Below, in pieces: positions 13,223-62,211 of a stretch of 64,000 bases of DNA (within the stretch, counting starts at the first letter, position 1; each line of letters begins with the position of its first letter). The notes below the pieces were generated by a model. It was not told the DNA's origin. It was given only the letters and a program-made list of their open reading frames with translations, and searched no databases. Source of the DNA: an uncultured Thermomicrobiales bacterium. GTDB lineage: Bacteria; Chloroflexota; Chloroflexia; Thermomicrobiales; UBA6265. Made by a program: the position numbers and the translations under genes. The stretch lies in the NCBI GenBank assembly GCA_902806325.1, contig CADCWE010000179.1, positions 4,124 through 68,123 on the forward strand, written 5' to 3'.

Positions 13223-13294
13223 GGCGCTCCTGGGCAGAAGGCGTGGTCGTGAGCTGTCCCTCGGGCTTCGGTGGTGGCCTCACCGGGGAGAATC

Positions 13295-15296: not shown

Positions 15297-16634
15297 ATGA
15301 CCGGTCAGATCAACCGACGCTCGCTGATCAAGGGCGCCGCCGGGGCGGCGGTCGGCACGGCCGCGCTGGCGGCCTCCAAGCGGAGTAGCGTGTTCGCCGC
15401 GCCGGCGGTGATCCAGGAGACGGGTTCTCAGGTTAACGTGGTGTTCTGGAGCGCGTTTGGCGGCAAGAACGCAGAGGTCGAGCAAGAGGTCATCAAGCGA
15501 TTCAACGAGTCGCAGCAGGACGTCGTCGTCGAGTACCAGTACCAGGGCACCTACGAGGAGACGGCCCAAAAGGTCATCGCGGCCCTGCAGGCGCGTCAGG
15601 CGCCGGACATGGCCGTGTTGTCGGAGGCGAACTGGTTCCGCTTCTACGCCAACCAGTACCTCGCCGCGATGGACGACTTCATTGCCGCCGAGGAGATCGA
15701 CACCAGCGACTACGTCGAGTCGTTCCTGACCGAGGGCCAGCGGCAGGGCAAGCAGTGGTGGATGTCCTTCGCCCGGTCGACCCCGCTGTTCTACTACAAC
15801 AAGCAGATGTGGGCCGAGGCCGGGCTCGAGGATCGGGGACCGAAAACCTACACCGAGTTCTCCGAGTGGGGGCCGAAGCTGCTCAAGAAGAGCGGGAACG
15901 ATGTCTCGCAGTGGGCGTTCCTCCACGCCCCGGCGGTCGACTACCTGTCCTGGCCGTTCCAGGGCACCGTCTGGGCCTTCGACGGCGCCTACTCCGACGA
16001 AGAGTTCAACATCCGGATCACCGAGCCGAACTCGATCAAAGCCGGCGAATGGCTGCGCTCGACCGTGGTCGAGGGGTGGTCGACGGCGTCCCAGGATCGG
16101 ACGACCGACTTCGTCAACGGCGTGACGGCGTCGATCATGCAATCGACGGGAACGCTGGGCACGCTGATCGCGAACGCGACGTTCGAATTCGGGTCGGCGT
16201 TCCTGCCCTCGGAGGTCACGTCCGGTTGCCCGACCGGCGGCGCCGGCATCGGCATCCTGAGCACGTCGCCCGCCGAGAAGCAACAAGCGGCCTTCAAGTA
16301 CATCGCGTTCGCCACCTCCCCGGAGATCACGACCTATTGGTCGCAGAACACCGGCTACATGCCGGTGCGCAAGTCGGCGGGCGCAAGCCCGGAGATGCAG
16401 ACGTTCTACGAAACCAACCCCAACTTCCGCACCGCGGTCGAGCAGCTCGCGATCACCAAGCCGCAGGACCCCGCGCGCCGCTTCATCCCGGCCGGCGACT
16501 CGATCATCGGCAAGGGCCTGGAAGAGATCACGGTCAACCAGGCGGAGGTGCAGCCGACCTTCGAGCGCGTCAAGGCGACGCTCGAAGAGGAAGCCAAGCC
16601 GATCCTGGAGCAGTTGAAAGCCGTCGAAGGCTAG
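15297..16634 (+). CDS. ABC transporter extracellular solute-binding protein (family 1, sugar-type) with a Tat-like signal
   Basis: MTGQINRRSLIKGAAGAAVGTAALAA is a twin-arginine-type signal. The body resembles SBP_bac_1/8. The ATG at 15297 is preceded by GAGGAGGA. No ATPase gene lies in the module. Confidence 0.8.
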   Translation: MTGQINRRSLIKGAAGAAVGTAALAASKRSSVFAAPAVIQETGSQVNVVFWSAFGGKNAEVEQEVIKRFNESQQDVVVEYQYQGTYEETAQKVIAALQARQAPDMAVLSEANWFRFYANQYLAAMDDFIAAEEIDTSDYVESFLTEGQRQGKQWWMSFARSTPLFYYNKQMWAEAGLEDRGPKTYTEFSEWGPKLLKKSGNDVSQWAFLHAPAVDYLSWPFQGTVWAFDGAYSDEEFNIRITEPNSIKAGEWLRSTVVEGWSTASQDRTTDFVNGVTASIMQSTGTLGTLIANATFEFGSAFLPSEVTSGCPTGGAGIGILSTSPAEKQQAAFKYIAFATSPEITTYWSQNTGYMPVRKSAGASPEMQTFYETNPNFRTAVEQLAITKPQDPARRFIPAGDSIIGKGLEEITVNQAEVQPTFERVKATLEEEAKPILEQLKAVEG

Positions 16635-16667
16635 ACGTCCTCCCCGTAGCGAGGAACAACCTCAAGG

Positions 16668-16699
16668 CAGGAAGGCCGGGCACACGCCCGGCCTTCCTC
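16668..16699. terminator. Bidirectional terminator-like hairpin between convergent genes
   Basis: caggaaggccgggc-acac-gcccggccttcctc, a perfect GC-rich stem with no clear T run. Confidence 0.5.
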
Positions 16700-16767
16700 C
16701 GCGTATGGACCGCGAACGTGTCGGTTCCTCGGGTTCGGTGATGCGCCCGGGATGGGAGGTGCGCGGT

Positions 16768-24683: not shown

Positions 24684-25867
24684 GCGCCGGGGGGGGATCG
24701 CGTCCCCGCCGGTTCGATCGCCGGGGGGTGCTGCGTGCCGGTGCCGGGCTGGCGGTGTTGGCCATCGCCGGTTGCGGCGACGACGACGAGGTCGCCCAGG
24801 ACGCGACTCAGGTGCCGACCCCGGACTCGGTCCCAACCCAGGCTCCGATCGGGTCGCCGGTGCCCGGCTACGTCGACGTGGCCGAGAAATGGACCGGCCG
24901 GACGCTGACCATCGCCGGCCTCGGCGGCGCCTACCAGAGCGCCCAGGACGAAGCCTTCTTTAAGCCGTTCGCCGAGGCAACCGGCGTCGACATCGCGCTC
25001 GATGCGGCCTCCATCGGCGGCCTCACCGACCAGGTCGACGACGAGGCCGTGACCTGGGACGTGGTCGACCTGCCGACCGATCGGGTGCGCACCCTCTCCT
25101 CCGCCGATTACCTTTCCGCCATCGACACCCTGCTCGTCGACACGTCCCCCCTGTTCCCGGAGATCGTCGGCCAGTACGCAATCGGCGCGGCGTTCTTCTC
25201 CACCGTGATCGTCTACCCGGCCGCCGCCAACCCACCTGCCGGGTGGGTCGACTTTTGGGATCCGGCGCGTTTTCCCGGCCAGCGGGCCCTGCGCAAGACC
25301 CCGATCGGAACCATGGAATTCGCGCTGCTTGCCGACGGCGTGGCGCCCGACGACTTGTACCCCCTTGATGAGGAGCGGGCCTTCCGCAGCCTGGACCGGA
25401 TCAAGCCGTACGTCGCGTCCTGGTACGAGGACGGCAAGCAGCCGGTCGAGTTGATCGCCAACGCGGAGGTGGCCCTGGCCAGCGCCTGGAACGACCGCGC
25501 GGAGTTGCTGGACCTCGACGAGGTGGTGCGGGTCCAATGGCGCGGCGGCATGCTCTCAAGCCAGTCCTGGGTGGTCCCGCGGGGGGCACCGAACGCCGAC
25601 GTGGCGATGGACTTCGTCAACTTCGCGACCCGGGCGGTGCCCAACGCCAACTTCGCCCGGCTCGTCCCCTTCGGCCCGGTCAACCGGGACGCCTTCGCCC
25701 TCCTCCGCCCGGACCGCCTGGCCAGCCTGCCCAGCGCGCCGGACCACCTGGCCGTCCAGTTTCTAGAGAACGGGAACTTCTGGGCGGAGAACCTGGACCG
25801 GCTGCAAGAGCGGTTCGACGATTGGGTGATCGAGGAATTGCCGGAGACGCCGGAGGGGGAGGGATAA
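24680..25867 (+). CDS. ABC transporter periplasmic substrate-binding lipoprotein (PotD/PotF-like), paralogue
   Basis: MSAGGGSRPRRFDRRGVLRAGAGLAVLAIAGCGDD signal and lipobox. Blocks shared with the upstream SBP: FWDPARFPGQRAL / WWDGARYPEPRAL, FALLADGV, SAWN. An ATGA start/stop overlap joins the two genes. Confidence 0.7.
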   Translation: MSAGGGSRPRRFDRRGVLRAGAGLAVLAIAGCGDDDEVAQDATQVPTPDSVPTQAPIGSPVPGYVDVAEKWTGRTLTIAGLGGAYQSAQDEAFFKPFAEATGVDIALDAASIGGLTDQVDDEAVTWDVVDLPTDRVRTLSSADYLSAIDTLLVDTSPLFPEIVGQYAIGAAFFSTVIVYPAAANPPAGWVDFWDPARFPGQRALRKTPIGTMEFALLADGVAPDDLYPLDEERAFRSLDRIKPYVASWYEDGKQPVELIANAEVALASAWNDRAELLDLDEVVRVQWRGGMLSSQSWVVPRGAPNADVAMDFVNFATRAVPNANFARLVPFGPVNRDAFALLRPDRLASLPSAPDHLAVQFLENGNFWAENLDRLQERFDDWVIEELPETPEGEG

Positions 25868-42590: not shown

Positions 42591-43820
42591 GTGGCGGCGA
42601 ACGGGACCGGGGGGTGGCCGGACGCGATTGTGGTCGGCGGCGGGGTCGTCGGCTGCTCGATCGCCTACCGTCTGGCGGCGCGCGGCAAGCGGGTGCTGCT
42701 CTTGGAGCGGCGCGGGCTGGCGTCCGGTGCCTCCGGACGCAACGGCGGCATGACCGGCGCCGGCTCGGCGATGCACTCCGCCGCCGGCCGGGCAGTCTAC
42801 GCCCTGACCGCGGCCAACCTCTCGCTGCTGCCGGGGTTGGCGGAAGAGTTGGACGCCGACTTCGCCCTCCGCCTGCCGGGAACGCTCGACGTGGCGACCA
42901 CGGAGGCGCAGTGGGCCCACCTGGCCGAGAGCGCGGCCGAGCAGCGCGCCGCCGGTCTCGACGTCCGGCTGCTGGACCGCGACGAGGCCCGCGCCGCGAT
43001 GCCGGCCTTGTCCCCGGCCATCCTCGGGGCGTCGTTCGCCGGCGGGCGGGGCCACCTCTGGCCGTTCGCGCTGGTCCACGGGTTCGCGGACGCGGCCCGC
43101 CGGTTGGGCGTCGAGATCCGGGCCGGGGTCGAAGTCGAGCGATTGTCGCGGGTCGGGGACCGGGTGACCGGCGTGGTCGCCGGTGGGCAGCGGATCGAAG
43201 CCGACGACGTGGTCTTGGCGACCAACGCCTACACGCCCCACCTCCTGCCGGAACTTCCGCCCGGGGCGATCGTCCCCGCGCGGGGCCAGATCCTGGTCAC
43301 GAGCGCGGTACCGCCGCTGTTGCCGCACCCGTTCGGCACCAACTTCGACAAGGAGTACGGGCGCCAAACCCCGGACGGCAAGATCCTCTGCGGCGGTTTC
43401 CGCCGCCTGGACGACGACGAGGGCCTCGGCCACGAGGAGGAGCGGGTGACGCCGGCGGTGCTGGCCGGGATCGCCGGCTGCCTGGCCGGATTGTTCCCGG
43501 TCCTGCGCGACCGGGTCCGGGTGGTCCGGGCGTGGGCAGGGATCATGGGCTTCACCGCCGATGGGCTGCCGCTGATCGGGGCATTCCCCGGAACGCCGGG
43601 CTTGACCGTGGCCGCCGGCTTCAACGGCGGCGGCTTCTCCTGGGCCGCGATCGTCGGCCAAGTGGTCGCGGACCTTGTATCCGGGCGCGACCCGGGGTTC
43701 GACCTGGCGCCGTTCGACCCTGGTCGGTTCTCCGCGGGGAGAACCGCGTGGACCAACCCGTTCACGGCGGGCGAGCGCGCTCGGGTGGTCGGCGCACCGG
43801 CCCTGGCGGGGCCGTCCTGA
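42591..43820 (+). CDS. FAD-dependent oxidoreductase, DAO family (sarcosine/glycine/D-amino-acid oxidase-like)
   Basis: DAIVVGGGVVGCSIAYRLAARGKRVLLLE...GASGRNGG...C-terminal GFNGGGFSWA. GTG at 42591 is preceded by GGAGGG. The upstream part of the track ORF is a shadow of the glycosyltransferase. Confidence 0.8.
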   Translation: MAANGTGGWPDAIVVGGGVVGCSIAYRLAARGKRVLLLERRGLASGASGRNGGMTGAGSAMHSAAGRAVYALTAANLSLLPGLAEELDADFALRLPGTLDVATTEAQWAHLAESAAEQRAAGLDVRLLDRDEARAAMPALSPAILGASFAGGRGHLWPFALVHGFADAARRLGVEIRAGVEVERLSRVGDRVTGVVAGGQRIEADDVVLATNAYTPHLLPELPPGAIVPARGQILVTSAVPPLLPHPFGTNFDKEYGRQTPDGKILCGGFRRLDDDEGLGHEEERVTPAVLAGIAGCLAGLFPVLRDRVRVVRAWAGIMGFTADGLPLIGAFPGTPGLTVAAGFNGGGFSWAAIVGQVVADLVSGRDPGFDLAPFDPGRFSAGRTAWTNPFTAGERARVVGAPALAGPS

Positions 43821-44045
43821 CTCCGGGGTTCGGGGTTGGCCGGATCTCCCCCGGTCCTTTCCGCGGAGACCGTGCTGGCGCGATCTCCCGGCATCGTCCC
43901 GGGCGCCGCGTGCCGGCGCAACGCGGCCGCCCCCATCGGGGCGATCCGGACGTCGGAAGGTCCCGGCCGCCATCATCCGCGCCAGCGCAATCCGCCCCCG
44001 GCCGGGGCGAGCCGGAACGTGGGTTCCGGCTCGCCCCCCACGGCG

Positions 44046-47172: not shown

Positions 47173-49674
47173 TTAAGGCGTCGTGGGATCATCGGGCTCG
47201 ACGAGCCCGGCGGCGATGGCGGCGCTGACGGCCGCGGTCCGCGTCCGGACGCCGAGCTTGGCGAGGATATGGGCAACGTGGCGCTCGACGGTGCGGACAC
47301 TGAGGAAGAGCGTCTCGGCGATCTCGCGGTCGGCGCTCCCGGCCAGGAGCAGGCCGAGCACCTCGTGCTCGCGCGCCGAAAGCGTGACGGCGGCACGGTC
47401 GAGCGCTCCCGCGGCAGCAGCGGGTGGGGACATGCTCCGCACCTCCGCCGTCGCGCTCGCCACCGTGAGCCCGCGCCCAACCGCCCAGGCAGCTTGGAGG
47501 TCCTGCTCTCCCAACGCCGCGCGGGCGACGGCCAAGGCGCGCTCGTGCGCCGCCCGGTCGGTCGGGACGACAAACGTGCCGCCGAACTGCTCCCGCAGCG
47601 CCTCCGCGGCGCCCAAGAGCCGCGCGGCCCGCACCGGCTGATGCCAGGCCGCCGCCGCCAGCGCCGCCCCTTCCAGGGCGTCGACGACGACGCGCAGATC
47701 CCCCCGCTCGCCCAGCAACCCCAGGCACTCGCGATAGAACGTCACCGAGCCGGCGTAGTCGCCTTGGTCGCGCGCCACGTCACCCAGGTCGCGCAGCGAG
47801 CGGACGACGCCGATGGCGTAGCCGTGGGCGCGGCAGGTGGCGAGCGACCGCTCGTGCCGCGCCCTGGCGAGGGCGAAGTCCCCCCGGCCGTGCGCGGCGA
47901 GACCGAGGTTCGCGAGCACCATCCCGGTCACGGACGCGGCGACGATCGGGTCCTCGATGGCCGCCGCTTCGACGAGCGCCTCCTCGAGCACGCGCTCGGC
48001 ACGGTCGTGCGTCCCGCGGTCGATCGCGATCCCGCCTCGCCGGAGGAGCGCCATGGCCAGGGTTTGCGCGTCGTCGTTCTCGCGCAGAAGCGCGACCGCC
48101 TCGACGATGAGGCGATCCGCGCGCTCGGTCTCACCCTGGAACGCCAGCAACCACGCCAACCCGACGAGCGCCCGGGCGCGCGCGGACCGGTCACTTCGCG
48201 GGTCGGACGCCAGCGCGCGGTCCAGCCAGATGCTCCCTTCCCGATAGTGGCTGTGGCCGTACCAGAACCCGCCCAGCGCGGCAGCCAGACGAAGCAGGCG
48301 CCCGCCGTCGGTGCGCCGATCGAGCCAGCCGAGGGCCGCGCGGAGGTTGCCGTGCTCGGCATCCAGGCGCCGCAATGCTCGCTCGCCGTCCGGCAGGATC
48401 CATGCCGACTGGCTTCCCTCCGCCAAGGCCAGGCACCAGTCCGCGTGTTCGTCACCGACGGCGTCGCGCTCGTTCTTGGCGACGAGTTGCTCCAATGCAA
48501 ACGCCCGAATGGTCTCCAACATGGAAAAGCGCGCCTCAGGTGCCCCCGCTTCCTGCCGCACCAGGCTCTTGTCCACCAACGATGAGACGAGGTCGAGGGT
48601 CGGGGGCCGGGGGCCGAGAGCAGAACCATCGCTCGTTCGAATCGTATCGCTCGACGCTCGACTCAGGGACTCGGCCGCCGCCAAGGGAAAGCCGCCGACG
48701 AAGACGCCGAGGCGCCGAAACAGGATCCGCTCGTCGTCCGTCAGGAGGTCATAGCTCCAGGCGACGGCGTTGTCCATCGTACGCATGCGATCCGGCGCGT
48801 TCCGCGGAGCGGCGACCGGCAGCGGCAGTCGCTCCTGGATCCGGGCCAGGAGCGCGGCGGGCGGGAGGACGGCGCTTTGCGCGGCGGCGAGCTCGATCGC
48901 GAGGGGCAGGCCATCGAGGCGCCGGCAGATGGCGGCCACCAGCGGAACGGTGGTCTCCGTCAGGACGAAGGCCGGGTTGACCGCGAGGGCGCGCGCCGCA
49001 AAGAGCCGGACCGCCGCCGATCCCATCAGGAGTTCGAGCGTGTCGCGCTCGTCGGTGCCGGGCAGGTCCAACGGCGGGACCGGGAAGGCGTGTTCGCCGG
49101 GGACCCGCAGAAGTGCCCGGCTCGTCGCCAGCACCTTGAGGTGGGGGCAGGCCGCGAGCAGGTCGCTCACGAACGGGGAGGCGGCCAGGACGTGCTCGAA
49201 CGTATCGAGGACGAGCAACGCCTCCGCGTCGCGAAGGGCGACCAGCAGGGCGTCGCTCGCCGAAATGCCGCGGGTCTCCTGGACGCCGAGGGAGCGGGCG
49301 ACGGAGGCCGCGACCAGGCCGGCGTCGGGAACGGCGGCCAGTGGAACGAAGCGGACCCCGTCGGCGAGCGTGGGCATGGCCTCGCGGGCGATCTCCAGGG
49401 CGAGGTGCGTCTTGCCGATGCCGCCGGCGCCGGTCAGGGTCAGGAGGCGGACATCGAATCGGCGCAGGAGCGCCCGGACCGCCGCGACCTCGCGCTCGCG
49501 GCCGATCAACGGCGTGAGCGCCCGCGGCAACGGGGCGAACCGGTGCTCGCCGCCGCGCGGCGACGACCGCGGGGGGGAACGCTGGTCGTGGAGCGGCGAC
49601 AGAGCGGAAGCCATGAGGTTCTCCCGGAGACCGTCCGGTATCGGTCGCCCCAGGGGCGACCGCTGGCCGGTCAT
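47173..49674 (-). CDS. STAND-type transcriptional regulator: NB-ARC ATPase, TPR array and C-terminal LuxR-type HTH
   Basis: Walker [14 protein letters not shown], Walker [16 protein letters not shown] signature [14 protein letters not shown], long TPR-like helical repeats, and the Lux[49 protein letters not shown]. Confidence 0.85.
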
Positions 49675-52100
49675 GCCGGCGTGGAGGGACCGGGCGCCGC
49701 AAACCCGGCGTCGATGGCGGCGCGGACGGCCGCCGTCCGCGTCCGAACGTCGAGCTTGGCGAGGATATGGGCGACGTGGTGCTCAATGGTCCGTACGCTG
49801 AGGGCCAGCGCCTGGGCGATCTCGCGGTCGGGGTGCCCGGCCACGAGCAGGCGGAGGACGTCGACCTGCCTCGGGGTCAGGGATCCGAGCCGCGGGCTGA
49901 CCACGGCCCGCTCTTCGACACCGGCGGGCCGCTCCGGCGGCGCAAGGGCCTCCGCGACGACCTGGGCCAGCGGCAGCGCCCGCCCGGCCGCCCAGGCGGT
50001 CGCGAACGACGCCTCGCCCAAGACTGCGCGAGCGGCGGTCGTCCCCTGCTCATGGGCCGCTTGGGCCAGCGGGTCCCGCATCGTAATGCCCGTGGTCTCG
50101 CGCAGCCGTTCCGCCGCCGCGTACCAGCGCGTGGCGGTCAGCGCCTCGCGGGCGGCCGCAGCCGCCCACGCCAGGCCCTCCAGCGCGTCGGCGATGGCCC
50201 GCCGCTCGTCGCCGTCCCAGGCCAGCGCCAGGCCGTCGCGGTAGCACGCGGTTGCGCGGTCCAGGTCTCCCTGACTGCGCGCGACGTTGCCGAGGTCGAC
50301 GAGGGACAGCGTCTCTCCCCAACTGTTCCCGGCCGCCCGTCGCTCCGCCAATGCCTCCTCGTGGTAGGCCATCGCCGTCGCGAGCCGGCCCTGACCGTGG
50401 ACCGCCGTGCCGAGGTTGGCGAGGGCCGAGCTCGCCAGCGCCGTCGTCTGGCGCGGATCGACCATGTTCCGTGCCACGGTCAGAGCGTTCCAGAAGTGGG
50501 CCGCGGCCAGGTCGTAGTCCCCTCGGACCTGGGCCACCGCGCCACGCGCGATCAGCGCGCGGGTGGTCTCCACAGGATCGTCGGCCGCGAGCGCGAGCGA
50601 ATGGCTTTCCACCGCCAGGCGGTCGGCCTCCGCGAGGTCGCCCCGCGTCACCATCATCAGGCTCAACAGGCCCGCCATCTTGGCTTGGGTCGGGGTCGGC
50701 GCCGCGGCCGGCGTCCGCACCCGGCCCAGCCAGGTCAGGCCGTCGCGCAGGTATCCGCGGATGAACCAGAACCAGGCCAGGGCGCCGGCGAGGCGAGCGA
50801 TGTCTGCCTCCGCGCCGGTCTCCGCCAGCCAGCCGAGGGCCGCTCGCAGATTGGCGTGTTCGGCATCAAGGCGGTCGAGTCGACGCCGGTCGCCGGGGAG
50901 GGACGGCTCCGCTTGCCACCGCTCGGCAAATGCCAGGAAATACGCGGCATGGGCCTGGACGGCGGACTCCGCTTCGCCGCTCGCCGCCAGCCGTTCCGCC
51001 GCGTATTCGCGGATCGTCTCCAGCATCCGGTAACGCGCCGTCCCGTCACCGTCGAGCTCGTTCCGCAGCAGACTCGCCTCGACCAACGCGGCGATACCGT
51101 CGAGAGTGATCGGTGCCGCGTCATCAGTGCTCGGGTCCCCGCCCCCGTTCCCTGTCACCCACTCGGCGGCCTCCAGGGTGCAGCCGTCGGCAAAGACGGA
51201 GAGGCGGCGGAACAGGGCTTGTTCCCCGGGCGAGAGCAGTTCGTAGCTCCAGGCGATCGCGTTGCGCAAGGTGCGGTGGCGGTCCGGCCGATCGCGTGCG
51301 CCGCCGGTGAGCAGCGGCAGCCGGCGTTCGAGCCGCGTCAGCAAGGCCGCCGGCGGCAGCACGGCGACCCGCGCCGCCGCCAGCTCGATGGCGAGCGGCA
51401 GCCCGTCCAGGCGCCGACAGATCGCCGCCACGACGGTAGCCTGCTCCGTCGACAGGACGAAGTCGGCCTGCACCGCCCGCGCTCGCTCGACGAATAGCCG
51501 GATCGCCTCGTACGCCGCCACCTCCGCCAGGACCGGATCGTCGGTCGCCGGCGGGTGCGCCAGCGGCTGGACGACGACGCGGTGTTCCCCGGAGACGCGC
51601 AATGCGGTGCGGCTGGTCACGAGCATCTTGAGTCCGTCGCAGGCGCCGAGCAATTCGGTCAGGAGCGGCGCCGCTTCCACGACCTGTTCGAAGTTATCAA
51701 TCACCATCAGCAGTTGCCGGTCGTGGAGGAAGGCCACCAGGTCCTCCACCACCGGGCGGTCGCCGCGCTCGCGCAGCCGCAACGCCCGGGCGATGGTCGG
51801 TCCGACGAGCGCGGGGTCCCGAACCTGCGCGAGCCCGACGAAGACGACGCCGTCGGTGAAGTCCGTCGCCATCCCGGTTCCGACGGCCAGGGCGAGGCGC
51901 GTCTTGCCGATGCCGCCGGGGCCGGTCAGGGTCAGGAGGCGGACGTCGGGGTCTCGCAGTCGTTCCTGGACGATCTCGATCTCGCGCTCGCGACCGATCA
52001 GCGGCGTGAGCGGGACCGGAAAGGGGTTGAGCTCGTCGCGGGCGCCAGGCAGCAACGTGAGGGATTGCCGGACCAGATCCGGTGACGGCGAGTGAGCCAT
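49671..52100 (-). CDS. STAND-type transcriptional regulator: NB-ARC ATPase, TPR array and LuxR HTH (paralogue of the downstream gene)
   Basis: [83 protein letters not shown]. Its stop overlaps the next start (ATGA at 49671-49674). Confidence 0.85.
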
Positions 52101-52995: not shown

Positions 52996-53547
52996 TCAGC
53001 GAAAAAGCACGGCGACGGGGAGGCGGAAGCCGGGCACCACGTCACCGCCGTCCAATTCTTCGGTCTCGAGCAGGGTCAGCGGCCCGCGTCCGGCGGCGTA
53101 GGCGACGACCGCCCGGCGGCGGGGGAGGACGAGCCAGAGCAGCGGAACCCCGGCCCGCTGGTAGAGTTCGATCTTCTCCGCCACTTCGTCGAAAGGGTCG
53201 TTCGGGGAGACGACCTCGACGGCCAGGTCGGGCGGGTAGGGCGCGATCTTCCAGCGCTCGGCCTCCGGGCGCAGCCGGTCGGCGCGGACGAAGGCGACAT
53301 CGGGGATCAGGATCCTGTCCGGCTCACGGAGCACGATGAACTGGGTGTCGGACGGGTAGATTCGACCCAACCCGTGAGCGAAGACGTGCGAGCCGAGCGG
53401 GACGGTGATCTGGATCTCGATCTCTCCGTGGCGCATGCTCACGCCGGGTTTCTCCCGCGGCTCGTCGCCGATCAGTTCCAGGCGCGCACCGGCGCTGCCC
53501 ATCCGTTCGACGTCGGCGGCGGTGAACGGGCCGGTGATCGTGGACAC
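52996..53547 (-). CDS. Uma2-family (DUF820) PD-(D/E)XK endonuclease
   Basis: MRHGEIEIQI..., IPDVAFV, PDLAVEVVSPND, KIELYQRAGVPLLWLV. These are typical Uma2 motifs. GTG start at 53547. Confidence 0.8.
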   Translation of the reverse strand: MSTITGPFTAADVERMGSAGARLELIGDEPREKPGVSMRHGEIEIQITVPLGSHVFAHGLGRIYPSDTQFIVLREPDRILIPDVAFVRADRLRPEAERWKIAPYPPDLAVEVVSPNDPFDEVAEKIELYQRAGVPLLWLVLPRRRAVVAYAAGRGPLTLLETEELDGGDVVPGFRLPVAVLFR

Positions 53548-57474: not shown

Positions 57475-57569
57475 GTCATGCTGAGCGAAGCGACGAATCT
57501 TCTGCCCGCGAGCGGCGTTCTCGTTCGGAAACGACGACAAACGAGGTTCTTCGCCTCGCTCAGCATGAC
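57475..57569. repeat. Palindromic repetitive element of the LSEAK/SLSMT type (MITE/REP-like)
   Basis: Arms gtcatgctgagcgaagcgacgaa (57475-57497) and ttcttcgcctcgctcagcatgac (57547-57569), with 2 mismatches, plus an inner ctcgtt/aacgag stem. The arms translate to the spurious peptides MLSEAKNL and ASLSMT. Confidence 0.7.
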
Positions 57570-57718
57570 CTCCAGATGGGGGGTTGGCGCCGCTTGGTGA
57601 CGGGCGGGAACGATTTTCTCACCCAGAATGGTGCAGTTGTGACCAACCATCGCTACACTAGGAGAACGCGAGAACGGGGCAGAGGCGTCGGATCGGGCGC
57701 GGGCAAGGGGACACGACG

Positions 57719-60700
57719 GTGGGGCAAGACGAGTACCCGGTTCCGGCGCCCGGCGGCGGTGCCCCGCGCCAGATTTCCCCGACCGACGTCTCCCAGTTCA
57801 TCCGCCTGGACCAATGCGAACGCTACCTGCGGCTGCGCCTCCACGAACGGGTGGCCGTGCGAAACTTTCTCCGCGACTACGGGGTGGCGCCGCAGGCGAT
57901 CCCACCGCTGCTGACGCACTCCGGCAAGACCTTCGAAGATCGGATCGTGGCGGCGGTGGCGGGGCGTTTCCCCAGCTACGATCTGGTCGCCGAGCACGCC
58001 AACCCGCACGACCGCCAAGACGACAACCGGCGCGTGCTGGCCCTCGCCCGGGCCTTGCCCGCCGGGGAAACCCTGGTCGCCTTCCAACCCCGGCTGCGGA
58101 CGATCGTCGACGGGTGGGCGGTCCGCGGAGACCTCGACGTCTTGCGCCTGGAACGCGCACGAGACGGGGCGCTGTCGGCCTTGATCGTGGACATCAAAAG
58201 TTCCACCAGCGCCAAGGTCGAACACCGGCTCCAGGTCGCCTTCTACCGGGAGATGGTGGCCGCGCTCCTGGCGGAGACCGGGGTGGAACCGGATCGAATC
58301 GAGATCGGCGTCCTCTACCGGAGCGCCGCCGACGGGGCGCCGCCCCCGGACGCCGCCGACGCCGCCCGCCAGGCGCGCGAGCGGGCCGACGCCGAAACCC
58401 GGCTCGGGGTGGCGGACGGGTTCCTCGAAGTGGTCCCGGACCCGGAGGTCTACCGGGCGTCGGTGCGCGACCTGGTCACCGGGCCTGGTTCGCTCGCCGA
58501 CCGGGTCTCGGCGGCGCCGTTCGACACCATCCCGTTCCACCTCACCTACAAGTGCGACGGCTGCCTCTACAACGAGTTCTGCCTCAAACGGAGTGCCGAG
58601 ACCGACGACCTCTCCTTGCTGCCGCACCTGACCGAAGGCGACAAACGCGCGTTGCAGCGGGCCGGGGTCGGGGCGATCGGCAATCTGGTGGCCATGAAGG
58701 ACCTGCGGCGGCGGGGCACGGTCTCGGTCGACGGGGACGTGGTCGAGCGGACCGAACTGGTGCCGGCGCCCGGCCACGAAGCCCTCTCCCGGAGATTGGC
58801 CGCGACGTGGCCGGTCGGGCAGCGCCTCGACGAGCTGATCCACCGCGCCCGCCGCTACGCCGCCTGGAAAAAGCAACCGGTCGAGGCGCTCTACCACATC
58901 CCGAGCAAAGGCTACGGTTCGCTGCCCTACGCCGACGCGACCCAAAACCCGAACCTGGTCCGGGTCTATCTCGACGCCCAGCACGATTACCTGCACGATC
59001 GGATCTACCTCCTCGGCGCCCTGGTTGCCGGCAGCGAGGGCGGCGTCGAGCGGCCGGAGCGGCGGCGCACCGTGGTCGCGTTGGCCGACGGCCCGCCGGA
59101 CTCGCTGGCCGGGGAGGAAGCGCTGTTCGTGGATTGGATCGGGCGAACGCTGGCGGCGATCGCCGAGGTCGCCGCGCCGGACGCGGACGGGCGGCCGAGG
59201 GCGCCGATCCACCTGATCTTCTACAACGAGTTCGAGCAGCGGTTGCTGCTGGACGGCCTCGCCCGCCACGCCGGGGCGATCCTCGGCGCGACCCCGCTCT
59301 ACGACTTCGTCACCCAGTTGGCGGCGTTCGATTCGCCGTTGAGCACGTTCCTCGCCCAGGAGATCCGGGAGCGGAAGAACTACCCGATGGTCTGCCAGTC
59401 GTTGCAGGCGGTGGCGGCGTTCCTGGGATTCGACTGGAACCGGGGCGAGCGCTACCGGGACCTCTTCCGGGCCCGGATGTTCGATTTTTGGGGCCGCTTG
59501 GACGCCCCGGCCGACGCCGCCGCCGAGACGCCCGGCGCCTGGTACACCAACCGCGCCCGCTTCAACTCCCAGATCCCGCTGGAGTTCGCCTACGCCGCCT
59601 GGGGCGACCTGCCCACGCCGCCGGAGCGGGGCAAAGACGACGTGGCGCCGTACCGCGCCGCGACCCTGGACCTGCTGCGCGGCTTCCACGCCCGCCGCCT
59701 GGAGGCGATGGAGCACGTCGCCAAGGATTTTAAGGGGAACAGGCAGACGGAGAAGACGGCGTTCGTGCTCCCGGACCTGCCCACCTTCGAGGAGAAGGCG
59801 CGGTCGCTCGCCCACGCCTTGGACGAGTTCGTGACCATCGAGCGCCACGTTTTCCTCGCCGCCTGGAAGCGCGAACGCTTGGCGGAGCCGGAGCAGCGGG
59901 TCCTGGCCGGGCAAACCCTGGTCGTCCGCTACCGCGAGGAGGACCAAGCGCCCGGCGTCGCGGAGCAAAACCGGGACAACGAGCGGCGGCGCCAGCTACG
60001 CGACGCCTACCGCGCCGCCTGGAAGGCGGAGCATCCGGACGCGAAGCAGATCCGGCTGCCGAAGGAGCAGCGCGAGGAGTCCGAATGGTCCCAGGAGGGG
60101 ATGACGGTCCGCCTCCGCCTGGAGTGCGCCGATGTCGCCTGCGACCTCGACGAGGCGCTCGGCATCACCACGCTCAAGGCGGGCGATCGCCTCGTGCTCT
60201 CGCCGCGGTGGACCGTCGACGAGCGGTTGCCCGTGGCCGACCGGGTGTCGTTCACCCCAACCGCGAAGGCGATGCTCTACGGGTTGCGGGCCGACTTGGA
60301 TCGGATCGTGATCGACCGGGGCGACGACGGCCGGGCGGTCGCGGCCTGGGCCGAGGTGGCGCTGCGGCAAGGCTTCGGCGGTGGCTCGCGCGGCTTCACG
60401 TTCGCCACGATCCCGGCTCGCAACCGGCCGCTGGAACCCGACGCGATTTACACCCTCGACCCGGACCCGAACGACTTCTACGGCTCCTGGACCGCCACCG
60501 TCACCGAAGGGCTCGTCGACGGCGGTCAGAACACGCTCTACGCGCTGCTGGCCGGGCAGGAGCGTCCGTTGCCGCTCTGGCCGGAGGCGGGCGCGGTCGG
60601 TCAAGCCCGGTTCCTGGCCGGCCTGGACGCGCTGCACAGTGTGGGCGCCCTGCACGGATTCGAGCCGAGCAAGCGCGCCTTCATCGGGGGGCACGGGGAA

Positions 60701-62170
60701 GCGCCGCTGCTGCTGGTCCAAGGGCCGCCCGGCACCGGCAAAAGCTACTCGACCGCCTTCGCGATCCTGGCCCGGATCCAGGGCGCGATGGCCGCCGGGC
60801 GGGATTTCCGGGCCGTCGTCTCCTGCAAAACGCACGCGGCGACCGACGTCCTGCTGGGCAACCTGGTCCGGGTCCAGGAGCTGTTGGCCGGGTTGGCGGA
60901 CCAGCACCCCGCCATCGCCGCCGCGCACTTCGATCCTCGGCTGTGGGACGCGCCCCTGTTCCGGGTGGCGCCGCGCGGGGACGCGCCGGCCGGGACGACG
61001 GCGCTGCCGCGGGAGCGCGACCGGACGCCGGACCAACCGAAGGCGACCGAGGCGATCCAGGCCGCGCGCTGGTGCGTCGCCGCCGCGACGCCGGGCGGCG
61101 TCTTCGGGCTCATCAAGGACCGCTGGGCGAAGGATCTCTTCGGCCATCCCCTGGCCGACTGCCTGGTGCTGGACGAGGCGTCGCAGATGAACCTGCCGGA
61201 GGCGGCGATGGCGGCGTTGCCGCTGGCGCCGGACGGGCGGCTGATCGTGGTCGGCGACCACCGCCAGATGCCGCCGATCGTCAAGCACGACTGGGCCAGC
61301 GAGCCGCGGCGCACCTTTCAAGAGTTCCGCTCCTACGAGTCGTTGTTCGAGACCCTGCTGCCGTTAAACCCGCCGATGATCAAGTTCGAGGAAAGCTTCC
61401 GCCTCCACGCCGACGCGGCGGAATTCCTGCGCCGCGAGATCTACGCCCAGGACGGCATCGCCTACCACTCCCGGCGCCGCGACACCATCGCCGCGCTGCC
61501 AATCGCCGACCGGTTCGTGGCCGCTGTCTTGTCGCCGCACCACCCGCTGACGGTGGTGGTCCATGACGAGGCCGGCAGCCAGGTCCGCAACCCCTACGAG
61601 CAGGCCCTGGTGGCACCGATCCTGGAGGCGTTGGCCGACCCGTTGGTCTACAACCTGGGGCCGGAGCGAGGGCTGGGCGTGGTGGTGCCGCACCGCGCGC
61701 AGCGGGCAGCGCTCCAAGAGGCGGTGCCGGGATTGACGGTCCGCGACCCAACCACCGGCGCCATCTCCCTCTCGGCGGTCGACACGGTCGAGCGTTTCCA
61801 GGGCGGCGAGCGGACGGTGATCCTGGTCGGGGCGACCGAGAGCGACCGCGAGTACCTGCTGGTCTCCGGCAAGTTCCTGCTCGATCCGCGCCGCCTGACC
61901 GTGGCCTTGAGCCGGGCCAAAGAAAAGATGGTCCTCGTCGCCGCCCGCACCGTCTTCGAGGTTTTTAGTCCGGACGACGAGGTTTTTGCCCACGCTCAGC
62001 TTTGGAAAAACCTGCTCCGCCGGACGTGCACGGTGCTGCTCTGGGAAGGGGAGCGGGGCGGACGGCGGGTGCAGGTGTGGGGGAACCCGGCGTCTGAGGA
62101 GCTCGGCGGAGTGGAGGGCAGCCGGTCCGTTTCACCCGTCCAAGTGGGCGGCGGCTCGATCGCCCGGTGA
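57719..62170 (+). CDS. 1483-aa fusion: Cas4/AddB-type 4-Cys PD-(D/E)XK nuclease (TM0106-like N-terminal half), an uncharacterised middle region, and a Dna2/Upf1-like SF1B helicase
   Basis: Nuclease: C33, GDLDVL (D138/D140), VDIKSS (D158, K160), QVAFY (Q172..Y176), YKCDGCLYNEFC (C279-x2-C282-x5-C288). Helicase: GPPGTGKS (aa 1002-1009, nt 60722-60745), VLDEASQ (1150-1156), VVGDHRQMPP (1177-1186), VDTVERFQGGERTVILV (1354-1370), RRLTVALSRAK (1391-1401). GTG start at 57719. It appears monocistronic. Confidence 0.85.
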   Translation: MGQDEYPVPAPGGGAPRQISPTDVSQFIRLDQCERYLRLRLHERVAVRNFLRDYGVAPQAIPPLLTHSGKTFEDRIVAAVAGRFPSYDLVAEHANPHDRQDDNRRVLALARALPAGETLVAFQPRLRTIVDGWAVRGDLDVLRLERARDGALSALIVDIKSSTSAKVEHRLQVAFYREMVAALLAETGVEPDRIEIGVLYRSAADGAPPPDAADAARQARERADAETRLGVADGFLEVVPDPEVYRASVRDLVTGPGSLADRVSAAPFDTIPFHLTYKCDGCLYNEFCLKRSAETDDLSLLPHLTEGDKRALQRAGVGAIGNLVAMKDLRRRGTVSVDGDVVERTELVPAPGHEALSRRLAATWPVGQRLDELIHRARRYAAWKKQPVEALYHIPSKGYGSLPYADATQNPNLVRVYLDAQHDYLHDRIYLLGALVAGSEGGVERPERRRTVVALADGPPDSLAGEEALFVDWIGRTLAAIAEVAAPDADGRPRAPIHLIFYNEFEQRLLLDGLARHAGAILGATPLYDFVTQLAAFDSPLSTFLAQEIRERKNYPMVCQSLQAVAAFLGFDWNRGERYRDLFRARMFDFWGRLDAPADAAAETPGAWYTNRARFNSQIPLEFAYAAWGDLPTPPERGKDDVAPYRAATLDLLRGFHARRLEAMEHVAKDFKGNRQTEKTAFVLPDLPTFEEKARSLAHALDEFVTIERHVFLAAWKRERLAEPEQRVLAGQTLVVRYREEDQAPGVAEQNRDNERRRQLRDAYRAAWKAEHPDAKQIRLPKEQREESEWSQEGMTVRLRLECADVACDLDEALGITTLKAGDRLVLSPRWTVDERLPVADRVSFTPTAKAMLYGLRADLDRIVIDRGDDGRAVAAWAEVALRQGFGGGSRGFTFATIPARNRPLEPDAIYTLDPDPNDFYGSWTATVTEGLVDGGQNTLYALLAGQERPLPLWPEAGAVGQARFLAGLDALHSVGALHGFEPSKRAFIGGHGEAPLLLVQGPPGTGKSYSTAFAILARIQGAMAAGRDFRAVVSCKTHAATDVLLGNLVRVQELLAGLADQHPAIAAAHFDPRLWDAPLFRVAPRGDAPAGTTALPRERDRTPDQPKATEAIQAARWCVAAATPGGVFGLIKDRWAKDLFGHPLADCLVLDEASQMNLPEAAMAALPLAPDGRLIVVGDHRQMPPIVKHDWASEPRRTFQEFRSYESLFETLLPLNPPMIKFEESFRLHADAAEFLRREIYAQDGIAYHSRRRDTIAALPIADRFVAAVLSPHHPLTVVVHDEAGSQVRNPYEQALVAPILEALADPLVYNLGPERGLGVVVPHRAQRAALQEAVPGLTVRDPTTGAISLSAVDTVERFQGGERTVILVGATESDREYLLVSGKFLLDPRRLTVALSRAKEKMVLVAARTVFEVFSPDDEVFAHAQLWKNLLRRTCTVLLWEGERGGRRVQVWGNPASEELGGVEGSRSVSPVQVGGGSIAR

Positions 62171-62181
62171 GGAGAGGGATT

Positions 62182-62211
62182 GGCGGGCATCGGGGCGCGC
62201 CGATGCCCGCC
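62182..62211 (+). terminator. Hairpin 12 nt after the nuclease-helicase stop
   Basis: A perfect 12-bp stem ggcgggcatcgg / ccgatgcccgcc with the 6-nt loop ggcgcg. There is no T run. Confidence 0.55.

What the first reader, a model, noticed from the sequence alone, without database searches (positions are those of the whole stretch)
57719..62170. Stand-alone 1483-aa Fe-S nuclease / SF1B helicase fusion (bacterial Dna2-like or Nhi-like candidate)
This is a single very large gene, isolated on both sides. A MITE-like palindrome lies upstream and a perfect 12-bp hairpin lies downstream. It combines four parts:
- A Cas4/AddB-style PD-(D/E)XK nuclease with the full C...CX2CX5C cysteine set (C33, C279, C282, C288) and catalytic D138/D140, D158-x-K160 and QxxxY.
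- A region of about 350 aa (aa 400-750, e.g. VYLDAQHDYLHDRIYLLG, IHLIFYNEFE). With the nuclease, it resembles the uncharacterised TM0106 RecB-like family, in which an RNase-H-like exonuclease fold is suspected.
- About 250 aa with no motifs I recognise.
- A complete Upf1/Dna2-type SF1B helicase with Walker A, Walker B and motifs III, V and VI all present.

The nuclease-then-SF1B order is that of eukaryotic Dna2 and of nuclease-helicase immunity proteins. Its neighbours (APH-like kinase, NTF2-like proteins, Uma2 nuclease, gene remnants) look accessory rather than repair-related. A four-module fusion of this size is, to my knowledge, not functionally characterised. I consider it the strongest candidate for a novel one-gene defence or DNA-end-processing system in this window.
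Basis: partly seen in the sequence, partly recalled or inferred. Interest (0 to 1): 0.75.

Follow-up and report, generated by a model that had tools for sequence, protein, structure and literature searches.

The report
Bacterial Dna2-like (Bad-type) nuclease-helicase gene
This is a real 1483-residue gene for an iron-sulfur nuclease fused to a DNA motor, an uncharacterised cousin of the studied bacterial "Bad" and eukaryotic Dna2 enzymes; whether it repairs the cell's own DNA or destroys invading DNA is still open.

Summary
They are invariant across a family of hundreds of proteins.

- **Architecture:** Fe-S "iron-staple" PD-(D/E)XK nuclease, then a helix-hairpin-helix, then an RNase-H-like central domain. 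The "motif-less 250 aa" is best read as the stalk plus beta-barrel of Upf1/Dna2-type helicases. A complete SF1B helicase follows; its best solved match is Dna2.
- **Central domain:** its DEDD exonuclease site is degenerate (DxQ instead of DxE).
- **Not unprecedented:** the module order matches the characterised Geobacillus enzyme Bad (full-length profile match E 9.5e-81 to a Bad-family proxy). It also matches actinobacterial TM0106-nuclease/RNase_H_2/helicase fusions.
- **Distribution:** mostly Chloroflexota. One clade is nested in Planctomycetota, with single branches in Acidobacteriota and Armatimonadota. A distant clade sits on haloarchaeal megaplasmids.
- **Context:** the gene stands alone with no conserved partner. 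No known defence model matches it beyond the helicase core. Most bacterial neighbourhoods are metabolic, and a minority contain defence genes.

**Verdict:** a Dna2/Bad-type 5'-3' ssDNA translocase-endonuclease and a new variant of a known kind. The defence idea is neither shown nor excluded.

The parts
57475..57569 (.). Upstream imperfect palindrome (26-nt arms, 43-nt spacer). It is a copy of a small palindromic repeat family that is widespread in metagenomes. It is probably not part of the gene's function.
   Evidence: fold z -5.3; arm found on more than 120 metagenome contigs, including inverted pairs and tandem copies
57705..57711 (+). Shine-Dalgarno-like AAGGGGA, 7 nt before the GTG start
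   Evidence: read directly from the sequence
57719..62170 (+). Whole ORF: 1483-aa Dna2/Bad-like nuclease-helicase
57767..58603 (+). Fe-S 'iron-staple' PD-(D/E)XK nuclease domain, aa 17-295. Key residues: C33, D140, D158, K160, Q172, Y176, C279, C282, C288.
   Evidence: Pfam PDDEXK_1. The residues are invariant. The AF2 model is confident here. Foldseek hits are AdnA/AdnB nuclease, Exo5, Cas4 and ACE1.
58604..58693 (+). Helix-hairpin-helix segment, aa 296-325 (DDLSLLPHLT...GVGAIGNLV). This is the only stretch that matches TIGR03491 (TM0106).
   Evidence: NCBIfam TIGR03491 matches aa 278-327, 31 bits against a cutoff of 97. Helices 306-314 and 320-324 are in the model.
58931..59638 (+). Central RNase-H-like domain, aa ~405-640. 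Its DEDD site is degenerate (D419-x-Q421-x-D423). H498, D529, F588-D589, R614, P620 and E622 are conserved. aa 545-617 are conserved but poorly modelled.
   Evidence: - beta-beta-beta-alpha-beta-alpha topology
- Weak but coherent RNase-H-fold hits in PDB and the BFVD 'RNase_H superfamily protein'
- Colinear alignment to PF13482-bearing fusions
- Conservation
- No Pfam hit by sequence
59666..60028 (+). Long helices, aa ~650-770 (linker / stalk)
   Evidence: AF2 models
60104..60463 (+). Beta-barrel, aa ~796-915. By inference it corresponds to the 1B barrel of Upf1/Dna2-type helicases. This region finds no match in the shorter (1260-1370 aa) relatives.
   Evidence: High-pLDDT strands. The C-terminal model aligns over 776 columns with Dna2 5EAN and about 760 with Upf1 cores. 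Matches to the short forms stop at about aa 740.
60671..61963 (+). SF1B helicase core (domains 1A/2A), aa ~985-1415: Walker A GPPGTGKS (K1008), DEAS (1152-1155), GDHRQMPP, TVERFQGGER, RRLTVALSRAK
   Evidence: Pfam AAA_11/AAA_12. By PDB sequence search Dna2 is the best hit. Foldseek gives Dna2 at E 8.9e-20. The motifs are nearly invariant.
61964..62098 (+). Conserved C-terminal tail, aa ~1416-1460 (QLWKNLL...C1437...W...VxVWG): a helix plus beta-hairpin of unknown role
   Evidence: Conservation and the model
62182..62211 (.). GC-rich perfect 12-bp hairpin, 12 nt after the stop codon, with no U-tract
   Evidence: The terminator scan did not call it.

Best explanation
**What it is.** The gene encodes a member of a large, uncharacterised sister family of Bad (the 'bacterial DNA2-like' helicase-nuclease).

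**Inferred mechanism, by homology to Bad and Dna2.**
1. A free 5' single-stranded DNA tail or flap threads through the Fe-S-stapled PD-(D/E)XK nuclease domain and reaches the SF1B motor.
2. The motor hydrolyses ATP to move 5'->3'.
3. The nuclease sits in front of the motor and cuts the strand endonucleolytically. The enzyme therefore shortens 5' tails and flaps and unwinds duplex.

**Central module.** The HhH plus RNase-H-like module has lost the canonical DxE exonuclease signature. It most likely acts as an extra DNA-binding site, for example for the junction or the displaced strand. That would fit the strand looping seen with Bad. This step is inference.

**Cellular role.** This is an accessory, horizontally mobile DNA-end-processing enzyme with no fixed partner. 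My split is about 45% genome maintenance (break or fork processing), about 35% attack on invading DNA, and the rest other roles.

**Confidence.** The figure given refers to the molecular identity and mechanism, not to the cellular role.
For: **Shown**
- All nuclease and Fe-S residues and all helicase motifs are present and invariant across the family.
- Dna2 is the best solved match for the C-terminal half, by sequence (E 1.4e-14; with a profile 8.3e-23) and by fold (E 8.9e-20 over 776 columns).
- The nuclease domain matches the Fe-S nucleases AdnAB, Exo5 and Cas4.
- The family profile aligns end to end with a Bad-family proxy (P0342): probability 100%, E 9.5e-81, 1173 columns.
  - P0342 has exactly Bad's spacing between the motif III Asp and the Walker Lys (152->817 against 150->815).
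  - Its 64%-identical relative comes from Competibacteraceae, a group listed in the Bad paper.
- The central regions alone still match at E 1.3e-5 over 118 columns.
- Bad's activities are published in PMC7430649: Fe-S cluster, ssDNA-dependent ATPase, 5'-3' translocase/helicase, ssDNA endonuclease and DNA looping.

**Accessory status**
- 259 relatives were found in 185,579 species genomes, using a strict 9-residue motif.
- The Planctomycetota clade is nested inside Chloroflexota at 48-55% identity.
- Some bins carry divergent second copies.
- No neighbour is conserved.
- Synteny is kept in some close pairs and lost in others.
Against: - No biochemistry exists for this family. Polarity, substrate and Fe-S content are all inferred.
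- The central-domain link to Bad is modest (probability 80%). Its link to PF13482 is not significant by sequence (E 0.17; no Pfam hit at E<=10 in 10 members).
- D419, H498, D529, D589 and E622 are conserved in the central domain. It could therefore still be catalytic, which would change the mechanism.
- The AF2 models are of medium confidence (pLDDT 73.6 and 79.5). aa 545-617 are not modelled.
- The cellular role is unresolved: defence-type neighbours occur in a minority of loci and in most of the haloarchaeal loci examined.
Confidence: 0.7

Rival explanations
1. It is a stand-alone, single-gene anti-phage or anti-plasmid system, working like Nhi, Hna or Hhe. It loads on free ends or replication intermediates of invading DNA and shreds them.
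For: - Patchy distribution across phyla, with a transfer into Planctomycetota.
- Second copies in some genome bins.
- Haloarchaeal relatives lie on megaplasmids, directly beside a pAgo plus SbcCD-like pair, Mrr endonucleases or MrfAB-like pairs.
- Some bacterial loci abut TmtA (Tiamat), type I HsdR, or SLATT/TIR/TIR-STAND genes; BrxL/BrxA, Cas3 and WYL models also matched neighbours.
- One homologue is fused to an SNF2 + NOV_C module.
- Bad itself sits next to a type-III-like methyltransferase in Geobacilli.
Against: - No PADLOC or NCBIfam defence model matches beyond the helicase core. The best hits are MkoA, DpdJ and PLuB, on aa ~983-1432 only.
- Most ±10 kb neighbourhoods are metabolic.
- In the window, 10 neighbours give only weak domain hits.
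- Among 126 nearest neighbours from 63 loci, roughly a dozen match defence models, by my own tally of the per-family counts. Three or four of the MkoA/DpdJ hits are split halves of the gene itself.
- No copies were found in phage records.
- Several lineages keep the gene in a stable syntenic position.
Confidence: 0.3
2. It is a vertically inherited genome-maintenance enzyme of Chloroflexota. It would act as the 5'-strand resection or flap nuclease-helicase in place of, or beside, AddAB/RecBCD.
For: - More than 120 full-length relatives at 57-75% identity, named as Thermomicrobiales, Sphaerobacter or other Chloroflexota, and 241 clusters at E<1e-30.
- All catalytic residues are under strict conservation.
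- Synteny is kept between some species, with neighbour identities similar to the gene's own.
- Neighbourhoods are mostly housekeeping or metabolic.
- Dna2 performs exactly this job in eukaryotes (established knowledge).
Against: - It is never found next to replication or repair genes, and it has no conserved partner.
- The family is rare overall and crosses phyla.
- In two of the syntenic pairs it evolves faster than its neighbours: 68% against 83-89% in one pair and 72-79% in the other.
- Closely related copies (82-88% identical) sit in unrelated contexts (L059/L072, L064/L070).
- I could not test whether it is universal in Thermomicrobiales, or whether those genomes lack AddAB/RecBCD.
Confidence: 0.2
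3. It acts on RNA (Upf1/Sen1-like), for example in RNA decay or R-loop removal, rather than on DNA.
For: The helicase core is about as similar to Upf1, Sen1 and IGHMBP2 as it is to Dna2. The central domain has an RNase-H-like fold.
Against: - Dna2 is the top hit by sequence and by fold.
- The N-terminal domain is a RecB/Cas4-type DNA nuclease followed by an HhH DNA-binding motif.
- The characterised relative Bad is a DNA enzyme.
- The RNase-H-like site lacks the canonical acidic set.
Confidence: 0.05

Closest known systems
Bad, the bacterial DNA2-like helicase-nuclease of Geobacillus stearothermophilus (Wilkinson et al. 2020, PMC7430649)
   Same: - Single polypeptide with the same order: N-terminal four-Cys iron-staple RecB-type nuclease, central conserved domain, C-terminal SF1B helicase.
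- Rare, sporadic, cross-phylum distribution, and cellular role unknown.
- End-to-end profile alignment with a Bad-family proxy (E 9.5e-81). Part of the central domain aligns as well (E 1.3e-5).
   Different: - The window protein is 1483 aa against 1245 aa. The distance from the motif III Asp to the Walker Lys is 850 residues against 665.
- The families are only about 23% identical.
- Bad-type proteins have T/LTxQxE where this family has DAQHD.
- The barrel region (aa 750-980) gives only a weak partial match (E 0.012).
- There is no adjacent type-III-like methyltransferase here.
- The actual Bad sequence was not in hand. A proxy (P0342) was used.
Eukaryotic Dna2 (mouse Dna2 structure 5EAN/5EAW/5EAX)
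   Same: Fe-S PD-(D/E)XK nuclease placed N-terminal to an SF1B helicase. Dna2 is the best solved match to the stalk/barrel/1A/2A half, both by sequence and by fold.
   Different: - Dna2 has no HhH + RNase-H-like module between nuclease and helicase.
- Only about 18% identity over the helicase half.
- Dna2 is universal and essential in eukaryotes and works with RPA, whereas this family is rare and patchy.
- The two are not orthologues.
TM0106-family RecB-like nuclease fused to an SF1B helicase (e.g. Microbacterium terrisoli protein P0353, 1171 aa). [quoted passage not shown]
   Same: - Identical module order: Cas4-like nuclease, then an RNase-H-like domain (PF13482 at aa ~323-525), then a linker, then AAA_11/AAA_12 helicase.
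- Colinear full-length profile alignment (E 3.3e-42). D419/Q421/D423 align to D-x-E-x-D, and H498..Y502..E506 align to H..Y..E.
   Different: - In the window family PF13482 is not detectable by sequence, and the ExoI glutamate is a glutamine.
- TIGR03491 scores 31 bits against a cutoff of 97.
- The central-domain-only profile comparison is not significant (E 0.17).
- The window protein is about 300 aa longer.
Nhi and other single-gene nuclease-helicase defence proteins (Hhe, ProA, MkoA, DpdJ)
   Same: Large proteins that combine a nuclease with an SF1-type helicase. There are partial helicase-core matches to MkoA, DpdJ, Hhe, ProA and PLuB models.
   Different: The matches cover only aa ~983-1432 and lie far below the curated cutoffs. 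No model covers the nuclease or central domains, and no Nhi model matched. There is no experimental link to defence.
Cas4 / AddB / AdnAB iron-staple nuclease domains
   Same: The same nuclease fold and Cys pattern (C...CxxCx5C), and the closest structural matches for aa 17-295.
   Different: - No cas genes nearby.
- The helicase is SF1B (5'-3'), not the UvrD-like SF1A of AddAB/AdnAB.
- It is a single chain, not a heterodimer.

Membership tests
Bad (bacterial DNA2-like helicase-nuclease) family | N-terminal RecB-type nuclease with four flanking Cys (iron staple) and nuclease motifs 1-3 + QxxxY | tested here: met
   C33, D140, D158-x-K160, Q172xxxY176 and C279xxC282x5C288 are present and invariant. 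Fe-S binding itself was not tested.
Bad (bacterial DNA2-like helicase-nuclease) family | C-terminal SF1B helicase with motifs 1-6 | tested here: met
   Pfam AAA_11/AAA_12. The motifs are conserved. Dna2/Upf1 are the top folds.
Bad (bacterial DNA2-like helicase-nuclease) family | Central conserved domain homologous to that of Bad proteins | tested here: inconclusive
   hhalign on the central regions alone gives probability 80%, E 1.3e-5, over 118 of about 500 columns. A second piece scores E 0.012. A Bad-family proxy (P0342) was used, not Bad itself.
Bad (bacterial DNA2-like helicase-nuclease) family | Size and spacing of the family (~1245-1280 aa; 665 residues from the motif III Asp to the Walker Lys) | tested here: not met
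   1483 aa with an 850-residue spacing. The shorter relatives of the window family have 699-720.
Bad (bacterial DNA2-like helicase-nuclease) family | Biochemistry: Fe-S cluster, ssDNA-dependent ATPase, 5'-3' translocation, ssDNA endonuclease | not testable with these tools
   Needs purified protein.
Eukaryotic Dna2 orthologue | Nuclease directly followed by beta-barrel/stalk and SF1B helicase, with no intervening domain; universal in its lineage | tested here: not met
   About 450 aa of HhH + RNase-H-like domain + helices intervene. The distribution is rare and patchy.
TM0106 family RecB-like putative nuclease (TIGR03491) | Score at or above the NCBIfam cutoff (97.45 bits) over the nuclease + RNase-H-like region | tested here: not met
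   31.1 bits, covering aa 278-327 only.
TM0106 family RecB-like putative nuclease (TIGR03491) | C-terminal PF13482 RNase_H_2 domain with the DxE motif | tested here: inconclusive
   **Against:** no PF13482 hit in 10 central domains even at E<=10, and the motif is DxQ.

**For:**
- AF2 topology
- Coherent RNase-H-fold hits
- The BFVD 'RNase_H superfamily protein' at E 1.9e-6
- Colinear alignment to PF13482-bearing fusions
Known anti-phage systems (PADLOC-DB v2, NCBIfam antiphage models, incl. Nhi/Hhe/ProA/Mokosh/Dpd) | Full-length match to a system's protein model | tested here: not met
   Only helicase-core matches: MkoA 1147-1428, DpdJ 983-1432, PLuB 998-1413 (112 bits against a cutoff of 999), and Hhe/ProA about 40-70 residues. 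No Nhi model is listed.
Defence-island gene (guilt by association) | Most family members lie next to known defence genes | tested here: inconclusive
   - There is no conserved neighbour.
- By my tally, roughly a dozen of 126 nearest neighbours in 63 loci match defence models.
- Of 9 ±10 kb neighbourhoods with Pfam labels, one is clearly defence-type and three have single conflict-type genes.
- Six of the 7 haloarchaeal loci examined are defence-like or MGE-like.
- No background rate was computed.
CRISPR-associated Cas4 | Cas4 profile match and adjacency to cas genes | tested here: not met
   PADLOC Cas4 E 0.0068 over 30 residues. No cas genes lie within ±10 kb.

The most novel reading that the evidence does not exclude
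The family is a new stand-alone, or pAgo-/Mrr-cooperating, anti-MGE nuclease-helicase. Its central RNase-H-like domain keeps a non-canonical active site (conserved D419, H498, D529, D589, E622). It therefore acts either as a second nuclease or as the sensor that licenses the Dna2-type motor on foreign DNA. That would make it a dual-nuclease immune motor distinct from Nhi, Hna, Hhe and Bad.
Probability: 0.2. Interest if true: 0.7.

Novelty: new variant of a known kind. Interest (0 to 1): 0.4.

Why it matters
- **A model system for Dna2-type enzymes.** These enzymes place a nuclease in front of a 5'-3' motor, and that design is still poorly understood. Bad is the only bacterial example studied, and both its central domain and its cellular role are unknown.
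- **A fold assignment for the central domain.** This family is much larger than the set listed in the Bad paper. It links Bad to the TM0106 nuclease/RNase_H_2/helicase fusions, so the 'unknown' central domain gets a testable assignment: an RNase-H-like domain with a decayed exonuclease site.
- **Natural handles on function:**
  - short and long forms of the protein;
  - a pAgo-linked archaeal clade;
  - an SNF2 fusion;
  - a Chloroflexota-to-Planctomycetota transfer.
- **What a clear answer would give.** If the family turns out to be immune, it adds a new single-gene system. If it turns out to be a repair enzyme, it shows a Dna2-like resection route in bacteria.

Tried and rejected
- **Bad sequence.** I looked for it in the paper's supplement. 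The figures are images and only accession numbers are given. I used instead a proxy (P0342), identified by identical motif spacing and a Competibacteraceae relative.
- **Pfam on isolated central domains.** Ten members scanned at E<=10 gave nothing relevant.
- **Central-only hhalign against the TM0106-helicase set.** Not significant (E 0.17), but that set has only 6 sequences.
- **Rfam scan of the window.** No families found. The sigma-70 promoter and terminator scan gave nothing above chance.
- **Literature on AddAB/RecBCD absence in Chloroflexi.** Nothing usable.
- **Later work on Bad.** None found.
- **Rejected: pseudogene or chance ORF.** The coding signature and conservation rule this out.
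- **Rejected: CRISPR-linked Cas4.**
- **Rejected: AddB/AdnB-type subunit.** The helicase class is wrong and there is no partner subunit.
- **Rejected: MkoA/DpdJ hits among the neighbours as evidence of defence.** Three or four of them are the C-terminal halves of frameshifted copies of the gene itself (L053, L063, L084).

Full report
**1. Observation**

The ORF is exactly as described: 57719..62170, + strand, 1483 aa, GTG start.
- Its codon-position GC (0.73/0.48/0.92) matches the other genes of this 71%-GC window.
- An AAGGGGA motif lies 7 nt before the start.
- Pfam finds PDDEXK_1 at aa 112-288 and AAA_11/AAA_12 at aa 994-1409.
- The upstream inverted repeat (57475-57569) and the downstream 12-bp hairpin (62182-62211) are real.

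**2. Anatomy**

*Conservation.* In 26 close relatives, 42 diverse relatives and a set that includes archaea, these residues do not vary: C33, D140, D158, K160, Q172, Y176, C279, C282, C288. D138 does vary. The helicase motifs are nearly invariant: GPPGTGKS, DEASQ, GDHRQMPP, TVERFQGGER and RRLTVALSRAK.

*N-terminal model (aa 1-980, pLDDT 73.6).* It shows, in order:
- a nuclease domain, aa 17-295;
- a helix-hairpin-helix, aa ~296-325;
- a beta-beta-beta-alpha-beta-alpha unit from aa 414;
- a conserved but unmodelled stretch, aa 545-617;
- long helices;
- a confident beta-barrel, aa 796-915.

*Fold matches for the N-terminal half.* Against the PDB, the nuclease domain matches the Fe-S nucleases AdnA/AdnB, Exo5, Cas4 and ACE1. 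The next tier of hits is almost entirely RNase-H-fold proteins: UvrC C-terminal half, retroviral RNase H and integrase, ERI1, CRN-4, Argonaute PIWI and the Pol alpha exonuclease region. These hits are weak (E 0.1-0.7). Against viral models, the best hits are an 846-aa Faunusvirus protein (E 1.8e-8) and a 471-aa giant-virus 'RNase_H superfamily protein' (E 1.9e-6). Each aligns over more than 600 columns.

*C-terminal model (aa 700-1483, pLDDT 79.5, pTM 0.66).* Its best PDB match is mouse Dna2 (E 8.9e-20, 776 columns), followed by Upf1, ZNFX1, Sen1 and IGHMBP2 at about 760 columns. From the length of these alignments I infer that the 'motif-less 250 aa' is the stalk and 1B barrel that belong to this helicase class. 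It is not an extra module.

*The RNase-H-like site.* It is not canonical.
- The first strand reads D419-A-Q421-H-D423. The ExoI glutamate is a glutamine in nearly all members; it is a glutamate in two of 42.
- The ExoII-equivalent E506 is variable.
- H498, D529, F588-D589, R614, P620 and E622 are conserved.

**3. Relatives and what is known**

*Size of the family.* There are more than 120 full-length relatives at 57-75% identity, those with names being from Thermomicrobiales, Sphaerobacter, Ktedonobacterales and other Chloroflexota MAGs. With aa 1-980 as query there are 877 50%-identity clusters, 241 of them at E<1e-30.
- Long forms (1400-1480 aa) match the whole query.
- Short forms (1260-1370 aa; Ktedonobacterales, Roseiflexaceae, Acidobacteriota) match only to about aa 740.

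*The characterised relative.* The literature holds Bad from Geobacillus stearothermophilus (PMC7430649).
- It is 1245 aa: iron-staple nuclease (D150), a central conserved domain described as having no detectable homology, and an SF1B helicase (K815).
- It contains an Fe-S cluster, is an ssDNA-dependent ATPase, a 5'-3' translocase and helicase and an ssDNA endonuclease, and it loops DNA while moving.
- Its cellular role is unknown. In Geobacilli it lies next to a type-III-like methyltransferase.

*The link to Bad.* I had no Bad sequence. P0342 (1251 aa) has D152 and K817, which is the identical 665-residue spacing. Its 64%-identical relative is from Competibacteraceae, a group in the paper's Bad list.
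- The window family aligns with the P0342 family end to end: probability 100%, E 9.5e-81, 1173 columns.
- The central regions alone match at E 1.3e-5 over 118 columns. These cover the first four elements of the RNase-H-like unit. The P0342 family has FLTxQxEP where the window family has YLDAQHDY.

*A third group.* Proteins of 1040-1194 aa, one of them named from the actinobacterium Microbacterium, carry a TM0106-type nuclease, a Pfam-recognised RNase_H_2 domain (PF13482, aa ~323-525) and the same helicase.
- The window family aligns colinearly with them (E 3.3e-42).
- D-x-Q-x-D pairs with their D-x-E-x-D, and H498..Y502..E506 pairs with their H..Y..E.
- The central-only comparison is not significant (E 0.17, six sequences).
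- Pfam does not see PF13482 in ten isolated central domains.

*Reading.* Three sister families share one architecture. The RNase-H-like module is recognisable in the TM0106-type fusions, but in the window family and in Bad it has diverged beyond Pfam recognition and lost the canonical DxE.

**4. Distribution and context**

*Distribution.*
- A scan of 185,579 species genomes with the family-specific motif PLEY[AVI][YW][AGS]A[WY] found 259 relatives.
- The best 80 are mostly Chloroflexota. They also include Gemmataceae, Isosphaeraceae and Tundrisphaera (Planctomycetota), Blastocatellia and Armatimonadota, at 48-55% identity.
- In a neighbour-joining tree the Planctomycetota form one clade nested within Chloroflexota. 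This suggests transfer followed by vertical descent.
- One MAG holds two copies that are about 65% identical (L028/L080). 'Chloroflexi bacterium 54-19' has both a long and a short form.

*Bacterial neighbourhoods.*
- Clustering of neighbours over about 70 loci found no conserved partner. The commonest neighbours are an MBL-fold hydrolase (8-9 loci), an ABC transporter (7) and a ROK kinase (6).
- The window's own neighbours are DUF3500, APH, SnoaL-like, Uma2, ThiF/rhodanese and two STAND/TPR/GerE regulators. They give no real defence hits.
- Of nine ±10 kb neighbourhoods with Pfam labels, five show no defence-type genes and one has SLATT/TIR/TIR-STAND genes. Three have single conflict-type genes: a HigB toxin plus methyltransferases, a reverse transcriptase, and a WYL-WCX regulator plus ARPP-1.
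- Among 126 nearest neighbours from 63 loci, PADLOC models matched TmtA, BrxL/BrxA, type I and type II methyltransferases, Cas3, WYL and HEC-01 in one or two members each. A follow-up scan added a type I restriction enzyme next to L077. Three or four of the MkoA/DpdJ hits are split halves of the gene itself.
- Close pairs sometimes keep synteny (L013/L017, L049/L058, L065/L067, L056/L061, L079/L081). Others do not (L059/L072 at 88% identity, L064/L070). In two of the syntenic pairs the gene is more diverged than its neighbours.

*Mobile elements.*
- No phage record carries a relative. The single weak phage hit covers only the nuclease domain.
- In plasmid records the hits are a 375-kb Chlorohelix replicon and eight haloarchaeal megaplasmids. 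Identity there is 22-26% over the nuclease and central domains, and 33% over the helicase in the Salinigranum copy.
- On the haloarchaeal plasmids the gene lies directly after a Piwi/pAgo gene and before an Mre11/Rad50-like pair (Salinigranum). Elsewhere it lies before Mrr endonucleases (two plasmids), beside MrfB-like (HHH_5+RNase_H_2) plus MrfA-like helicase pairs (two plasmids), or among replication genes.

**5. Interpretation**

*Molecular function.* This is well constrained. The protein is a Dna2/Bad-type enzyme whose Fe-S-stapled nuclease is positioned ahead of a 5'-3' SF1B motor. It is expected to load on free 5' ssDNA and cut as it translocates. This is inferred from homology to Bad and Dna2 and has not been shown for this protein.

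*Central module.* The HhH + RNase-H-like module is probably a non-catalytic DNA-binding element, perhaps the second DNA site that strand looping requires. Its conserved acidic and histidine residues leave a second activity possible.

*Cellular role.* This remains open.
- Patchiness, inter-phylum transfer, paralogues, the archaeal plasmid contexts and a minority of defence neighbours point towards conflict with mobile DNA.
- Stable syntenic positions, mostly metabolic surroundings, strict conservation and the lack of any defence-model match point towards an accessory maintenance function.

**6. Novelty and score**

The claim that such a fusion is uncharacterised is not, because of Bad. The defence reading is unproven.
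- The family is an uncharacterised sister of Bad and of the TM0106-helicase fusions, so it is a new variant of a known kind.
- The useful by-products are the fold assignment for the 'unknown' central domain and the catalogue of natural variants.
- Interest: 0.4.

Noticed in passing
window 57475-57569: The upstream palindrome is single-copy in the window and in the 90 loci fetched by then. Some of these are inverted pairs 50-80 nt apart (L149, L164) and one has three tandem copies (L091). It is a widespread small palindromic repeat family.
   Followed up: partly
window 24743-24835 and 43769-43864: ARAGORN calls two tRNA-Ala genes of unusual length (93 and 96 nt). The Rfam gathering-threshold scan of the window reports no tRNA at all. 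They may be false positives or intron-bearing genes.
   Followed up: no
window ~12000-16700: GC drops to 0.64-0.69 against 0.70-0.74 elsewhere. Three consecutive + strand ORFs (13271-16634) have first-position GC of only 0.56-0.59. This may be a foreign segment.
   Followed up: no
window 47173-52100: Two tandem ~810-830-aa genes encode STAND (NB-ARC/AAA_16) + TPR + GerE/LuxR regulators. A Uma2 nuclease gene lies at 52996-53547.
   Followed up: partly
L020 7956-15857 (Blastocatellia MAG): Here the homologue continues in frame into an SNF2-type helicase plus a NOV_C (DUF3883) domain, giving a 2633-aa ORF.
   Followed up: partly
L004 6538-17482 (Salinigranum rubrum plasmid NZ_CP026313.1): Four genes lie in a row on one strand: a Piwi-domain pAgo, the nuclease-helicase homologue, an Mre11-like metallophosphoesterase and an SMC/Rad50-like ATPase. 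This could be a pAgo accessory module.
   Followed up: partly
L087, L090, L088, L089 (haloarchaeal megaplasmids): The homologues are followed by Mrr_cat restriction endonucleases (L087, L090). In L088 and L089 they are flanked by an MrfB-like (HHH_5 + RNase_H_2) gene plus an MrfA-like (DEAD + MZB) helicase gene. The MrfB-like protein has the same HhH + RNase-H sub-architecture as the central part of the window protein.
   Followed up: partly
L026 13006-17715; L077 4868-7834; L212 15233-22302; L216 4631-6701: Individual bacterial homologues abut defence-type or conflict-type genes:
- L026: a full-length TmtA (Tiamat, E = 0)
- L077: a type I HsdR
- L212: a SLATT/TIR/TIR-STAND-WD40 cluster
- L216: a WYL-WCX regulator + ARPP-1 on the same strand

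   Followed up: partly
P0342 relatives: The Bad-type family is abundant in Planctomycetota (Gemmataceae, Pirellulaceae). It also occurs as ~2050-aa proteins that carry UvrD-type helicase Pfam domains in addition. Gemmataceae therefore carry both the Bad-type and the window-type families.
   Followed up: no
L028 vs L080; L038 vs P0274: One Chloroflexales MAG holds two copies that are about 65% identical. 'Chloroflexi bacterium 54-19' holds both a long (~1444 aa) and a short (1326 aa) form. These are paralogues or binning artefacts.
   Followed up: partly
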